From a virus (Duplodnaviria; Caudoviricetes): DNA of 64,000 nt. A model generated the notes under the pieces. That model was given only the letters and a program-made list of their open reading frames with translations. It did no database searches and had not been told where the DNA came from. Every line of letters starts with the position of its first letter. The first letter of the stretch is position 1. Where the stretch lies: IMG/VR virus record IMGVR_UViG_3300036824_000037, positions 32,001 through 96,000 of that record. One strand, given 5' to 3'. Of this stretch, positions 12,744 to 16,125 are shown in pieces. The translations under genes were made by a program, and so were the position numbers.

Positions 12744-13901
12744 GCCGTCAACGTATCCGCCACGTCTCGCGTCCGAGAGTGGTTGGCCGAAACCTGTCCC
12801 GCCGAAGCATGGAAGGGGACACCATGACCACCGAAACCACCGCGCGCGCCCGCCGCAGCCGCCGGCCATCCAACGCGGACCGCTCGCACCGCCTCGACGA
12901 CCTCACCGCGTGGCTCACCGCCCGCAACAGCGTGGCACCCACGCAGAACCAGGAGACCCGCTCATGCTGATGCTCGAAGGCGCCCTGATCGCGCTCGGCG
13001 CGTTCCTGCTCGGCCGCGTACTGCCCGGCCGACGCCGCACACCCAAACCCGCGCCGCCACCCCGGCCGATCTGCGACTGCCGGCACAGCATCAGCTTCCA
13101 CACCGACGGAACCGGCGGCTGCGCGTGGGTGGGCGAGAAGTTCTACAAGTCCGGCTGCGGCGCGATCACCCCGAAGTGCACCTGCCTGCGGTACGTCGGC
13201 CCGACCCCGCTGCCGGAGTACTTCGCCAACGAGATCAGCGCGACATGACCGCCCTGCCGCCGGAGATCACCCGCAACCTCGACGCGCACCGCACCGCGCT
13301 CGCGTTCATCCGCGCCATGCTCACCGACCGGATCGACGACGCACTCGAGCTGTGGTTCACCTGCCCCGAAGACCAGCGCATCGACATCGGCTTCGCCCTC
13401 GCCACCCAAGCCGCCGCATACCTGAGCGCCCGATGCGGCGGAGGGGAAGCCGGCGGCCGGATGGCGCTCCGCTACGCCGACGAGACGCTGCTGGCCATGG
13501 CGCAGGAGGACGGCGGATGAGCGCCCCGGCTGGCTTCGAGCCTTATCGAACAACACCCCGGCCCGCTGCCGGGCCATCCCCGCTAGCAAGGAGGCACCAC
13601 CCATGACCCTGACCGCCCTCGACGCCCTAGACACTGACCTGCTCGACGCCCTCGCGGCTGTGGAGCGGGCACGCCGACGACTCGAACAGGCGCGGTCGGC
13701 CGGCGGATCCACCGTTCGCGGATCCACCGCCGGCGTACCCGCGCTCGCCGCAGCGTCGGACCCGAACCGCGCGCAGCGTCCGGACGAGTGCGTCATCCGG
13801 GGCGTCCGCTACCGCCTCGTGCCCAACGCGCACGAGGTGATCGAGGCGGCACTGGCCCGGAAGACGGCCGCACGTGGTTGAGGTCGCCCCGCGCCAAAGA
13901 G

Positions 13902-14446
13902 CGGCCAGGCCGCGCCTCACCCCGCCAGGGCGCGTCGCGCCAAACCGGGCCGGGCCATGCCACGCCTGCCATACCTGGCCCGTCCTCGCCGCGACGCGCC
14001 CAGCCAGGCCGGACCCCGCCTGCCGTGCCATGCCTGGCGATACCTCGCCTAGCCACGCCTGCCACACCAAGTCGGAACCCGACCCACCTGGCCAATCCGG
14101 GACTGGACGCACCATGACGTGCCGGAACGCGCCTGCCAGTACCTGCCAAGCCATACCGAGCCGAGCCCGGACCTGCCGTGCCTGCCGCGCCATGCCGTGC
14201 CGGGCTCTGCCGGGACGGGACACGCCGGGACTCGCGATGCCCTACCTGCCCCACCGAGCCGGGCCTAGCCTATCCGCGCCCTGCCTGGACGAGTCCGACC
14301 GAACCGGGCCTGCCGGGACCCGCCAAGCCTCGCCGTGCCTCAACGCGCCTATCCGTGCCGAGCCCGAACTCGCCCCGCCTGCCGGGCCATGCCAAGCCAA
14401 ACCGCGCCAAAACCACCGTGCCCAACCACGCCAGGACGTGCCTGCC
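13902..14446 (-). ncRNA. Guide-like array: 9 units of GGCA + 7-14 GGY-NN pentamers (VIPR-like)
   Basis: Manual parse of - strand. Units start at 14446, 14383, 14314, 14250, 14186, 14137, 14063, 14024, 13970; lengths 63, 69, 64, 64, 49, 74, 39, 54, 69. 73 of 101 pentamers start with exact GGY; NN is variable. Begins 4 nt after the accessory gene stop. Confidence 0.85.
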
Positions 14447-14450
14447 GCGC

Positions 14451-14888
14451 TCACGCAGCGGCGCTATCCGCCCCGCCGACGTCCTGACGCACCATCGCCA
14501 CGAACTCCTCGAACTCCCTGTAGCGGCGATACAGCGCCTTCCACTCCCGCTCCATCGCCCGCAACACCAACTCGCTGCGAAAAGGATCCTCCCGCACCTC
14601 CTCGGCCGGGTCGTACGCGTACCCGTCCTTCGACGGCACCGACACGAACGCCCGCACCGACTTGGCCGGCCCCGACTCGTCGGCCTCCCGGTACGCGATC
14701 CGCACACTGCGGATCAACTCGCGCGCCTGGTGCAGCCGGTACGCCTCGCCCGCGGCCGAGTCGTCCCACTCGAACCGCGAGTGCAGCGGATGCGACGGCT
14801 CGCGCGCGGCGGTCACCACGTGCCTGTCTGCGAGCGTTCCGTACTGTGAACGGATCGCCAGCAGTTCCGAACGCAGGTCGGTGCTCAC
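14451..14888 (-). CDS. Conserved accessory protein of the RAMP-array locus
   Basis: HPLHSRFEWDDSAAGEAYRLHQARELIRSV motif; GTG start overlaps the RAMP stop (GTGA). Confidence 0.8.
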   Translation of the reverse strand: MSTDLRSELLAIRSQYGTLADRHVVTAAREPSHPLHSRFEWDDSAAGEAYRLHQARELIRSVRIAYREADESGPAKSVRAFVSVPSKDGYAYDPAEEVREDPFRSELVLRAMEREWKALYRRYREFEEFVAMVRQDVGGADSAAA

Positions 14889-15520
14889 GCAGCCACCAGC
14901 TCGCGGAGTCCGCGCACTACCTCGACCGGGCGGTTCGGGTCCAGGACATAGGTGCCGAAGTCGCCGTCCTTCTCCGGACGCCACTCGCCAACCCCGACGC
15001 CACCCCCACCGGCCTCGATCAGCGAGAGCACCGATTCCTGGGTGAGCGCCGAGGTGACGTACGTGACCTCCAGCGTCGCCGACCAGGGCAGGAACTGCGG
15101 CCGGTAGCGCAGGTCCGAGCCGCTGCGGTTGACCGTGACCACGTCCTCGCGCATCACCGGCTCGCCGACGATCCGCACGAGCCCTCGGCCATCGGAGCCG
15201 ATCTCGCCACGGAAGAACATGTACTGCTTGAGCGCGGTCATCGTGACGCCGCTGAAGAGGCGCGCACCGCTGACGGTGGCCGCCTTGAACGCGAGGGCGG
15301 GAAAGCCGTATCCGCCGTCGGCGAGCCGGTAGAACGCGGCCTCGTACTCGCCCTGCGGGTCCTTGTTCTGCTTGGGCGCCTTGCGGCCCTGCATGTTGTC
15401 CAGCATCTGGCGCTTGGCCTTCTCGCTGAACTTGTGCACGATCAGCGGCGCGGTCCCGGCGATGGGGACGTGGATCGTCTCGGTGCCGATCCGGCTGATG
15501 TTGATCGTGGCATCGGTCAT
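14885..15520 (-). CDS. Cas7/RAMP-like RNA-binding protein (Vipr-like), 211 aa
   Basis: RAMP-like elements: first strand IHVPIAGTAPLIVH, GFPALAFKAA, C-terminal Gly-rich loop GGGGVGVGEWRPEKDGDFG; GGAGA RBS; no other cas genes nearby. Confidence 0.75.
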   Translation of the reverse strand: MTDATINISRIGTETIHVPIAGTAPLIVHKFSEKAKRQMLDNMQGRKAPKQNKDPQGEYEAAFYRLADGGYGFPALAFKAATVSGARLFSGVTMTALKQYMFFRGEIGSDGRGLVRIVGEPVMREDVVTVNRSGSDLRYRPQFLPWSATLEVTYVTSALTQESVLSLIEAGGGGVGVGEWRPEKDGDFGTYVLDPNRPVEVVRGLRELVAA

Positions 15521-15589
15521 GGCTGTCTCCAGAGAGAGATCAAGGGAATGGTGAGTTTTCAGCCACTCCGCGCCACGAACCGTGCGAGC

Positions 15590-15620
15590 AGTATAGGAGA
15601 TGCAATGCGAAGATATGCAA
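15590..15620 (-). promoter_or_regulatory. Putative promoter of the RAMP-accessory-array operon
   Basis: TTGCAT-19 nt-TATACT on - strand, 70 nt upstream of the ATG; spacer longer than usual. Confidence 0.55.
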
Positions 15621-16125
15621 GTGAGGCCACGCCCCGGAGCCGGGCGGCGGCGGTTACCTGCCACGAATCGACCTGCACGGCCGGCTCCGGGGATGGGGTT
15701 CAGGGCGTGCGCCCCCTCGCGGACCGATGCCACGGCGCGGCGAGGGAGGACTCCCGATGACCTACGTCACCTGGCGCCGCCCGAACCCGGACGACGACCG
15801 CCCCACCGTCCCCTACTCGTGGTTCGGCTGGGGCCACCTGTACGGGCGCCGCTGGCAGTACTGGCCGCCCTGGGGCGTGACGTACTGGTGGCGGCCTCAG
15901 GCCATCGACGCGTGCGACGGCGAGCGAGCGTCGAAACTCGTCACCGTGCCACTGCTCGGCGCCATCGTGTGGTTCTTCAACTCGCCCTGCGACTGCCCGG
16001 GCGACGCGTCGGCCCAAGGCTGCGAGCCGGGTCAGCGATGACTGCACGTCACGGTTCTGCATCTTCGCCGTGCGCGGCCCCGTCCGGCCGTACGGTTGCC
16101 CCGTCGCCGTCCCGTGGGGGGAACC

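What the first reader, a model, noticed from the sequence alone, without database searches (positions are those of the whole stretch)
14187..14250. Array unit 4 decodes to the ThiF/E1 nucleotide-binding motif AIVGLGGTGS
Seen: NN string AG AT GA CC GT CC CC AG CC AC AT GC. Its reverse complement with one skipped base per pair is GCn ATn GTn GGn CTn GGn GGn ACn GGn TCn ATn CTn = A-[I/M]-V-G-L-G-G-T-G-S-[I/M]-L. Known: hydrophobic strand + GLGGTGS is the GxGxxG signature of ThiF/MoeB/E1-like adenylyltransferases, which include E1 components of antiphage ubiquitin-like systems (CBASS Cap2, Bil). Inference: the code skips every third (wobble) base, so synonymous changes would not allow escape, and this guide may silence a host or competitor E1-family gene (possible anti-defence). 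This is the best internal support for the code. I saw no such gene in this window.
Basis: partly seen in the sequence, partly recalled or inferred. Interest (0 to 1): 0.92.

Follow-up and report, generated by a model that had tools for sequence, protein, structure and literature searches.

The report
Phage VIPR guide aimed at Bub E1
The repeats are the guide-RNA array of a phage VIPR system (a CRISPR-like DNA silencer first described in 2026), and one guide spells, codon by codon with the third base skipped, the conserved nucleotide-binding motif of the E1 enzyme of bacterial "Bub" ubiquitin-like operons, so the phage may use it to switch off a suspected host defence.

Summary
Window 14187-14246 is one 12-repeat unit of a 540-bp GGY-NN pentamer array, and its NN string and decode (A-[I/M]-V-G-L-G-G-T-G-S-[I/M]-L) are exactly as stated.

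The array belongs to a VIPR system, known from three 2026 preprints. It comprises a Vipr RAMP protein (14885-15520, minus strand), a conserved accessory gene (14451-14888) and a "staggered" vrRNA array.

**What is new here:**
- The ten 3' repeats of this guide match 20 of 20 positions in at least 120 species' genomes (about 1-6 expected by chance).
- All 120 sites lie in frame at the AIVGLGGTGS loop of E1 genes of Bub operons. These are the E2-E1 fusion BubBD and the JAB-E1 fusion BubCD.
- The best full-length matches are 23/24. No 24/24 target exists in the collections searched.
- The phage has no ThiF gene and no self-target.
- Only this one of 546 related guides decodes to G.GG.G.

The target class is well supported. 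The host, the true target and the anti-defence role are inferred. This scan has met VIPR systems before in at least 9 other genomes, but found no note of one with a defence-gene target.

The parts
14885..15520 (-). vipr gene: 211-aa Vipr protein, a stand-alone Cas7-like RAMP. One protomer is expected to bind each GGY-NN repeat of a vrRNA.
   Evidence: A profile of 24 homologues hits PDB 36pp 'SUSP1 Vipr protein' at E=1e-10 over residues 12-197. The single sequence hits it at E=3.9e-5. The AF2 model has pLDDT 84, and its Foldseek top hits are Csm3/Cas7 of type III and type VII CRISPR complexes at E about 3e-6. It matches phrog_4652 at E=1.5e-40. There are no Pfam, NCBIfam or PADLOC hits.
14451..14888 (-). 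vap-like accessory gene (145 aa). Its GTG start overlaps the vipr stop (GTGA). Function unknown.
   Evidence: It matches phrog_15946 at E=1.4e-30. Homologues lie directly downstream of vipr in 71 of 80 related loci. There are no hits in Pfam, NCBIfam, PADLOC or PDB. The Atlas neighbours are viral hypothetical proteins.
13907..14446 (-). Staggered vrRNA array. It holds ten blocks of GGY-NN pentamers (5, 6, 13, 12, 12, 9, 14, 7, 10 and 12 repeats) separated by 4-mers, GGCA nine times and GGTG once. It begins 5 nt after the vap-like stop codon.
   Evidence: Parsing is. A same-strand GGC-rich pentamer array lies near the vipr homologue in about 68 of 80 IMG/VR loci, and also in Gordonia phage Ecliptus and Mycobacterium phage Donkeykong. 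GGCA is the delimiter at 507 of about 640 junctions. Guides flanked by GGCA on both sides have mostly 8-12 repeats. This fits the 'staggered vrRNA arrays' of the VIPR preprint, fig. S18 legend.
14187..14246 (-). Guide unit 4 (the finding): 12 repeats, NN 5'->3' = AG AT GA CC GT CC CC AG CC AC AT GC. The predicted target strand is GCxATxGTxGGxCTxGGxGGxACxGGxTCxATxCT, which encodes A[IM]VGLGGTGS[IM]L.
   Evidence: Sequence and decode are.
14247..14250 (-). GGCA delimiter on the 5' side of unit 4. The matching 3' delimiter is at 14183-14186.
15590..15620 (-). Promoter-like stretch upstream of vipr: TTGCAT at 15620-15615, a 19-nt spacer, TATACT at 15595-15590. A GGAGA ribosome-binding site precedes the ATG at 15520.
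   Evidence: Read from the sequence. The consensus scanner did not flag it. It overlaps the partial self-match of guide unit 7.

Best explanation
Window 13,907-15,520 (minus strand) is a VIPR system of a 128.8-kb soil actinophage. It consists of vipr, a vap-like gene and a staggered array of about ten vrRNA guides.

By analogy with the characterised SUSP1 system, Vipr protomers bind the GGY triplets of a vrRNA and present the NN dinucleotides. The NN pair with a DNA strand read as N-N-skip, and the bound filament blocks transcription.

Unit 4 is a 12-repeat guide. Its ten 3' repeats specify codon positions 1 and 2 of A-I-V-G-L-G-G-T-G-S. This is the nucleotide-binding loop of the E1 (ThiF) adenylation domain of Bub ubiquitination-like operons (BubBD E2-E1 and BubCD JAB-E1 fusions). 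The vrRNA would pair with the coding strand, and every skipped base falls on a wobble position.

The most likely function is silencing of a Bub operon, including the E1 domain and the downstream bubE. The operon could sit in the host chromosome or in a resident prophage. Bub operons are thought to be damage- or infection-induced immune operons, so this would be RNA-guided counter-defence.

**Shown here:** the system's identity, the guide's sequence, and its match to the Bub E1 motif.
**Inferred:** expression and processing of the guide, tolerance of the 1-3 mismatches seen in natural genes, the identity of the real target, and the benefit to the phage.
For: **System identity.**
- The Vipr profile hits PDB 36pp 'SUSP1 Vipr protein' at E=1e-10, and the fold is Cas7-like.
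- The array grammar is GGY-NN pentamers.
- The vipr, vap-like gene and array are linked in 68-71 of 80 related loci.
- The source record is a virus.

**Target.**
- The 20-base pattern for the ten 3' repeats has at least 120 exact hits in species-representative genomes, against about 1-6 expected.
- All 120 hits are in frame at the same motif. By the motif after the site, 103 are BubBD-like and 17 BubCD-like.
- Pfam confirms DUF6791+ThiF or Prok-JAB+ThiF in the seven proteins scanned. DUF6527/BubE and Multi_ubiq neighbours are present, as defined for Bub in bioRxiv 10.1101/2024.11.21.623953.
- Full-length matches are 23/24 in 5 genomes, 22/24 in 15 and 21/24 in 100.
- A 143-kb, 67%-GC viral contig carries a JAB + E1 operon beside an M78 peptidase gene, with a 21/24 site.
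- In SUSP1, R-loop formation runs 3'->5' along the vrRNA. The two repeats of unit 4 that mismatch natural E1 genes are its 5'-most, which are engaged last.

**Specificity.**
- Only 1 of 546 related guides decodes to G.GG.G.
- The phage has no self-target and no ThiF gene.
- The reversed-pattern and 0-skip controls are empty.
Against: - No 24/24 target was found in viral, genome or metagenome contigs. The d3-d12 pattern was also absent from metagenome contigs.
- BubBD genes read Y-[IV] after the motif, so they can reach only 21/24. One Streptomyces lineage encodes the Ser as AGC and drops to 19/24.
- Matches of 21/24 do occur by chance in GC-rich genomes. The weight therefore rests on the 20/20 run, not on the published 80% threshold.
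- The host is unknown (soil metagenome).
- Bub E1 sites are rare in Actinomycetes: 2 of 401 sampled genomes, one of which was the centre genome chosen for carrying the site.
- Five of the twelve scaffold triplets of unit 4 are not GGY.
- No other guide of the array has an identifiable target, so the code is not independently calibrated for this clade.
- Antiphage activity of Bub is itself only suggested by genomic context.
- Repression of a gene whose protein is already made would not help a lytic phage unless the operon is inducible.
Confidence: 0.6

Rival explanations
1. Unit 4 targets an E1/ThiF gene carried by a competing phage or other mobile element, as part of ordinary inter-element warfare. 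This is what the VIPR preprints report for natural guides. The E1 would matter as the rival's cargo, not as a host defence against this phage.
For: All natural VIPR targets described so far are satellites, prophages or other VIPR systems. A 143-kb high-GC viral contig carries a JAB + E1 operon with a 21/24 site beside an M78 (CapP-like) peptidase gene. Phage-borne ThiF-like genes with the VGLGGTGS core are common in IMG/VR.
Against: Five close relatives of this phage carry no ThiF gene. The viral hits other than L108 read LVGLGGTGS (18-21/24) and come from 35-55% GC contigs, unlikely neighbours of a 71% GC phage. The exact 20/20 sites were found in bacterial (and one archaeal) genome records, although these could lie in prophages that I did not check.
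Confidence: 0.2
2. The decode is a coincidence. Unit 4 targets some unrelated, unsampled sequence, or nothing, and merely resembles a Rossmann/E1 loop.
For: No 24/24 match exists in any collection. Partial matches of 21/24 arise by chance in GC-rich DNA. The motif was recognised after the fact among about 20 decodes of this array.
Against: Ten consecutive dinucleotides equal one family's invariant motif. That is roughly (1/16)^10 for a given motif. There are at least 120 exact genomic sites against 1-6 expected, all orthologous and in frame. G.GG.G occurs in 1 of 1,092 decodes of related guides.
Confidence: 0.07
3. Unit 4 is a decayed or decoy guide that no longer forms a working filament.
For: Only 7 of its 12 scaffold triplets are GGY. 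The others are CGC, GTC x3 and AGC.
Against: GTC/GTT scaffolds make up about 12% of all scaffolds in 80 related arrays, and other units of this array are equally degenerate. The unit has canonical GGCA delimiters on both sides and a typical length. The preprint notes frequent internal degeneracy of vrRNAs.
Confidence: 0.1

Closest known systems
VIPR systems with staggered vrRNA arrays (bioRxiv 10.64898/2026.04.26.720920, fig. S18; type II reference: Escherichia phage SUSP1, PDB 36pp)
   Same: A stand-alone Cas7-like Vipr protein. A small accessory gene translationally coupled to it. Phage-borne. Guides of 7-14 GGY-NN pentamers. The guide decode fits the N-N-skip rule with the skip on the wobble base. 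No self-target of 80% or more.
   Different: Actinophage clade at 71% GC. The Vipr is only distantly similar to the SUSP1 protein (E=3.9e-5 pairwise). There is no 3' pseudoknot tail; units are separated only by GGCA 4-mers. The scaffold is looser (G-[G/T]-Y). The accessory protein has no detectable similarity to anything named. The one decodable guide points at a putative immune operon, not at a satellite or phage regulator.
Bub (bacterial ubiquitination-like, formerly 6E/DUF6527) operons: BubBD and BubCD E1 proteins (bioRxiv 10.1101/2024.11.21.623953)
   Same: The predicted target site is the AIVGLGGTGS nucleotide-binding loop of their ThiF adenylation domain. The architectures seen at the exact-match sites are DUF6791-ThiF + DUF6527/BubE + Multi_ubiq, and Prok-JAB-ThiF. 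These are the defining ones for Bub.
   Different: These are the presumed target, not the thing in the window. The phage itself encodes no ThiF-family gene.
CRISPR interference by class 1 Cas7 backbones, and phage-borne CRISPR or anti-defence RNAs
   Same: A RAMP filament on a guide RNA, with periodic thumb-induced breaks in the guide-target duplex. RNA-guided silencing is used in conflicts between genetic elements.
   Different: The period is 5 nt with only 2 of 5 guide bases pairing, against 5 of 6 in Cascade. There are no repeats and spacers, no cas1/cas2, no nuclease and no PAM.
CBASS Cap2 and Bil E1 proteins
   Same: ThiF-family E1 enzymes of antiphage ubiquitin-like pathways, with a GxGGxG loop.
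   Different: All 120 exact-match genes fall into the two Bub groups by motif, and the seven proteins scanned have Bub architectures. PADLOC Cap2 (E1-E2) models hit them only weakly and locally, at E 1e-5 to 1e-13 around the loop.

Membership tests
VIPR system | Vipr protein: a minimal RAMP (RRM core, G-loop, thumb) homologous to characterised Vipr | tested here: met
   The profile hits PDB 36pp SUSP1 Vipr at E=1e-10 over nearly full length. The pairwise hit is E=3.9e-5 and includes the GVG(E/D)WRP loop. The AF2 model (pLDDT 84) is Cas7/Csm3-like.
VIPR system | vrRNAs made of tandem GGY-NN pentamers (9-16 repeats) with conserved scaffold and hypervariable NN | tested here: met
   In 80 related arrays the scaffolds are GGC 55% and GGT 20%. 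The NN strings differ between arrays, even at 91% Vipr identity. Guide lengths peak at 8-12 repeats.
VIPR system | Minimal locus: vipr plus one accessory (vap) gene, flanked by the guide array, on a virus | tested here: met
   The order is vipr, a 145-aa gene, then the array. The 145-aa gene is conserved in 71 of 80 loci. The record is a virus estimated 100% complete. Whether the 145-aa protein belongs to one of the published vap1-6 families could not be checked, because no supplement is held.
VIPR system | Staggered array architecture (adjacent vrRNAs overlapping by 1 nt, no long tail) | tested here: inconclusive
   The GGCA 4-mers between 5-nt registers fit the legend of fig. S18. The figure itself and RNA ends were not available.
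VIPR system | Guides are transcribed, processed and bound by Vipr | not testable with these tools
   No RNA run holds the locus. This needs sRNA-seq and pull-down.
VIPR system | Targets follow the 1-nt skip rule, with the skip on codon wobble positions | tested here: met
   Unit 4 has 20/20 in-frame matches at one motif in at least 120 genomes. The 0-skip version is empty in 5 site-bearing genomes. This holds for unit 4 only; the other units gave no target.
VIPR system | No self-targeting at 80% NN match or more | tested here: met
   The best self-hit of any long guide is at most 17-18 of 24-28 positions, equal to shuffles.
Bub operon E1 (predicted target) | ThiF adenylation domain fused to an E2-like domain (BubBD) or a JAB peptidase (BubCD) | tested here: met
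   DUF6791+ThiF is found in L200, L146 and L215. Prok-JAB+ThiF is found in L138, L147 and L242; L158 shows ThiF only. L200 matches NCBIfam PRK06153 at E=2.7e-171.
Bub operon E1 (predicted target) | Operon partners DUF6527/BubE and a ubiquitin-like protein | tested here: met
   DUF6527 lies downstream in L146. Multi_ubiq - BubBD - BubE is the gene order in three Streptomyces assemblies.
Bub operon E1 (predicted target) | Antiphage function of the operon | not tested
   This is only suggested by association with CapW/BrxR and CapH+CapP regulators in the literature.
   The proteins scanned have Bub architectures. PADLOC Cap2 models give only weak local hits. L108 (E2?-JAB-E1 as separate genes) is the only Bil-like arrangement seen, and it matches 21/24.

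The most novel reading that the evidence does not exclude
A phage uses a VIPR guide as RNA-guided counter-defence. By aiming at the invariant P-loop codons of the E1 gene, it can silence damage-inducible Bub ubiquitination-like operons across many alleles. This would be the first natural VIPR target that is an immune system rather than a rival element. It would also be independent evidence, from a phage, that Bub operons restrict phages.
Probability: 0.35. Interest if true: 0.8.

Novelty: new member of a known kind. Interest (0 to 1): 0.55.

Why it matters
VIPR was described only in 2026. Its natural targets reported so far are satellites, prophage regulators and other VIPR systems.

A guide that spells the catalytic-loop codons of a suspected immune enzyme would extend VIPR from inter-phage competition to counter-defence. 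It would show that guides can be aimed at invariant protein motifs, so that neither synonymous nor most non-synonymous changes allow escape. It would also give a direct handle on the unproven antiphage role of Bub operons: which phages carry anti-Bub guides?

The case also shows that VIPR guides can be read as peptides. Decoding NN strings into degenerate peptides is a quick way to predict targets when no nucleotide match is in the databases.

If the E1 match turns out to be non-functional, this locus is simply one more actinophage VIPR system.

Tried and rejected
**Readings considered before the VIPR papers were found, then dropped.**
- A TRAP-like protein-wrapping RNA (GAGNN x11).
- A pentapeptide-repeat coding region. 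GGC occupies all three codon phases, so the constraint is on the nucleic acid. The 628-aa + strand ORF 13874-15760 is spurious.
- G-quadruplex or i-motif DNA.
- Iterons or a centromere.

**Searches that gave nothing useful.**
- Rfam: only a sub-threshold SrbA hit outside the array.
- tRNA scan: none.
- Exact full-length scans of unit 4: 0 hits in viral, genome and metagenome contigs. The d3-d12 pattern: 0 in metagenome contigs.
- tblastn with a 21-residue peptide joined from the unit 6 and unit 4 decodes against phages and plasmids: nothing useful.
- Full-length scans of units 2, 3, 6 and 9: 0 hits in viral contigs.
- No guide beats shuffles against the phage's own genome, the E1 loci or the 80 related VIPR loci.
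- Phage-database blastn with another 7.9 kb of the window: no match.

**Unit 6 overlap idea.** The unit 6 decode ends in A[IM]VGA and shares four dinucleotides with unit 4. I tested whether the two guides tile one gene. Unit 6 reaches at most 16/28 upstream of the unit-4 sites. Its 22/28 hits in three low-GC contigs equal the shuffle maximum.

**Host identification failed.** Relatives cannot be drawn for a virus record. The exact Vipr protein occurs on one soil-metagenome contig only.

**Sequencing runs.** No RNA holder is listed. Laying the source soil run on L108 gave only short, diverged pieces. One covers the E1 motif, which is too weak to use.

**The vap-like protein.** The PDB profile search found nothing.

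Full report
**1. The observation**

The stretch 13,880-14,450 is the only part of the window with strong 5-nt periodicity. Lag-5 and lag-10 autocorrelation are 0.47-0.54, against about 0.29 elsewhere.

On the + strand it parses into NNGCC pentamers interrupted by 4-mers TGCC. On the minus strand this reads as GGY-NN repeats separated by GGCA.

The unit in the finding runs from 14187 to 14246. It has twelve repeats and a GGCA on each side. Read on the complementary strand with one free base after each pair, it decodes to A-[I/M]-V-G-L-G-G-T-G-S-[I/M]-L.

**2. What the array is**

The array lies 5 nt downstream of two translationally coupled minus-strand genes of 211 aa (14885-15520) and 145 aa (14451-14888). 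Neither has a Pfam hit. They match phrog_4652 and phrog_15946.

Homologues of the 211-aa protein occur in Gordonia phages and cluster-F-like mycobacteriophages and in 180 IMG/VR stretches.
- In about 68 of the 80 loci fetched, a GGC-rich pentamer array lies on the same strand within 1-2 kb. This holds even in contigs of 45% GC.
- In 71 of the 80 loci, the 145-aa homologue follows directly.
- The same array is visible by eye in Gordonia phage Ecliptus and Mycobacterium phage Donkeykong.

A profile of the 211-aa family hits one solved structure, PDB 36pp 'SUSP1 Vipr protein', at E=1e-10. The pairwise E-value is 3.9e-5. The AlphaFold model (pLDDT 84) resembles Csm3/Cas7 backbone subunits.

A literature search for pentanucleotide-repeat arrays in phages found the 2026 preprint that defines VIPR systems. 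A VIPR system consists of a Vipr RAMP protein, a vap gene, and vrRNAs of 9-16 GGY/NN repeats. The NN pair with DNA under a 1-nt skip rule, the skipped base usually falls on the codon wobble position, and either strand can be targeted without a PAM.

Two companion preprints add detail.
- One gives the structural basis. One protomer binds each repeat, the GGY triplet is sequestered, and the target is read as N1-N2-x3. R-loop formation proceeds 3'->5' along the vrRNA.
- The other reports a phage-satellite arms race.

The preprint also describes 'staggered' arrays whose vrRNAs abut with a 1-nt overlap. That fits the GGCA 4-mers found at 507 of about 640 junctions in this family. Guides bounded by GGCA on both sides have mostly 8-12 repeats.

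**3. What unit 4 points at**

The phage has no ThiF-family gene. No guide matches the phage's own 128.8 kb better than shuffled guides do.

The full 24-base gapped pattern of unit 4 has no exact match in viral, genome or metagenome contigs.

The 16-base core (VGLGGTGS) gave 39 viral hits, about half of them in ThiF-like ORFs. The best is a ThiF gene (PF00899, E=7e-37) next to a Prok-JAB gene and an M78 peptidase gene, on a 143-kb contig of 67% GC, with a 21/24 match.

About 1 hit is expected for uniform composition and about 6 at 70% GC.

All 120 sites are in frame at the same motif, and they fall into two protein groups.
- **103 sites** lie in about 400-aa proteins in which the motif is followed by Y-[I/V]-L-D. 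The three scanned are DUF6791-ThiF fusions (NCBIfam PRK06153). They are followed by a DUF6527 gene, and in Streptomyces they are preceded by a Multi_ubiq gene.
- **17 sites** lie in mostly about 445-475-aa proteins in which the motif is followed by x-x-A-Q-Q-L. Three of the four scanned are Prok-JAB-ThiF fusions.

These are the BubBD (Type II) and BubCD (Type I) E1 proteins of the Bub (6E/DUF6527) ubiquitination-like operons. An antiphage role for these operons is suggested by their regulators but has not been shown.

Full-length matches are 23/24 in five genomes, 22/24 in fifteen and 21/24 in one hundred. The BubCD type comes closest. Its residues after the serine are I/V/L followed by I/V/M/A/L, so an I-L variant would be a perfect target.

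Among the 120 closest BubBD homologues of a Streptacidiphilus protein, 54 have the exact ten-residue motif and most of the rest differ by one residue. Many are from Streptomyces. One Streptomyces lineage encodes the serine as AGC, which lowers the match to 19/24. So six-fold degenerate residues still offer a synonymous escape.

**4. Controls**

- The reversed pattern gave 0 hits in 406 genomes. The real pattern hit 7 genomes, 5 of which had been chosen for carrying the site.
- In an even sample of 401 Actinomycetes genomes, only 2 carry a site with 3 mismatches or fewer. One of those is the centre genome, chosen because it carries the site. This rarity would fit a sporadic accessory gene.
- The contiguous (0-skip) version found nothing in five site-bearing genomes.
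- The 2-skip version found one unrelated 21/24 hit. This shows that 21/24 alone is weak evidence in GC-rich DNA, and that the published 80% threshold should not be leaned on in very large databases.
- Only unit 4 among 546 related guides decodes to G.GG.G.
- Units 2, 3, 6 and 9 have no exact target in IMG/VR. The lack of a perfect unit-4 target is therefore not specific to it. Equally, the code is not independently calibrated for this clade.

**5. Mechanism proposed**

By analogy with SUSP1, twelve Vipr protomers would assemble on the unit-4 RNA. The filament would pair with the coding strand of a Bub E1 gene at the P-loop codons and block transcription of the E1 domain and of the downstream bubE.

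The ten perfectly matching repeats are the 3' ten, where R-loop formation starts in SUSP1. The two that mismatch natural genes are the 5'-most. This is an inference, because this clade lacks the 3' pseudoknot of the SUSP1 vrRNAs.

Bub operons are commonly placed under regulators that respond to infection or DNA damage. Silencing by an incoming phage could therefore act before the proteins are made. Whether the operon aimed at sits in the host chromosome or in a rival prophage cannot be told. Five close relatives of the phage carry no ThiF gene.

**6. Verdict**

The system is a new member of a known kind. This scan has already met VIPR loci in at least nine other genomes. A word search of the scan's notes found none linking a VIPR guide to ThiF, E1 or defence. 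A term search of the first VIPR preprint found no mention of ubiquitin or anti-defence targets. What is new is the predicted target class, and it is directly testable.

Noticed in passing
window 14025-14059 (guide unit 7) and 15591-15604 (upstream of vipr): The 7-repeat guide GT TA GA AT CA AT AC is the only guide conserved across related arrays (L004/L014, L005, L006, L007, L008); all other guides differ. In six of those seven loci (all but L007) its first five dinucleotides match, under the 1-nt skip rule, a site 80-90 nt upstream of the vipr start. In the window the site is GTaTAgGAgATgCA, overlapping the TATACT -10-like box. This suggests a partial-match autoregulatory guide. The 10/14 score alone is at background level; the evidence is the conserved position.
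   Followed up: partly
L002:2919-3305 (Mycobacterium phage Donkeykong, NC_051648.1 36870-37256): The annotated CDS 'gene 48, hypothetical protein' is a GGY-NN vrRNA array of about 350 bp, not a protein gene. Here the array lies upstream of the vipr homologue (gene 49), in the early region near the repressor, antirepressor and excisionase genes. About 27 cluster-F-like mycobacteriophage records carry the vipr homologue.
   Followed up: partly
L003:2497-2710 (Gordonia phage Ecliptus, OP820472.1): An unannotated vrRNA array of about 215 bp follows gene 19 (the vipr homologue). No vap-like gene lies between them. The cassette, with two HTH genes, sits between the tail assembly chaperone and tape measure genes, which looks like a mobile insertion.
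   Followed up: no
L019:6401-8620: One related IMG/VR contig has a pentamer array of about 2.2 kb (342 GGC triplets) in addition to a 470-bp array next to vipr. That is far longer than the arrays of the other loci.
   Followed up: no
window 13874-15760, + strand: A 628-aa ORF runs through the whole array and antisense through both VIPR genes. It is an artefact of high GC content and of the stop-poor repeat, but gene callers may report it.
   Followed up: partly
L249:6186-7625 (also L200:5716-6585 and L146:4069-4923): Actinobacterial Type II Bub operons are preceded by a divergent gene of about 285 aa with weak HATPase_c similarity. In the three Streptomyces assemblies a 188-aa HTH/DUF4325 gene accompanies it. 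This may be the CapK-CapS damage-responsive regulator pair described in 2026, which would make these operons inducible.
   Followed up: no
window 14064-14133 (guide unit 6): The complementary-strand decode T[KN]GPP[CW][KN]G[CW]A[IM]VGA ends with the start of another Rossmann-type loop and shares four dinucleotides with unit 4. No target was found.
   Followed up: partly
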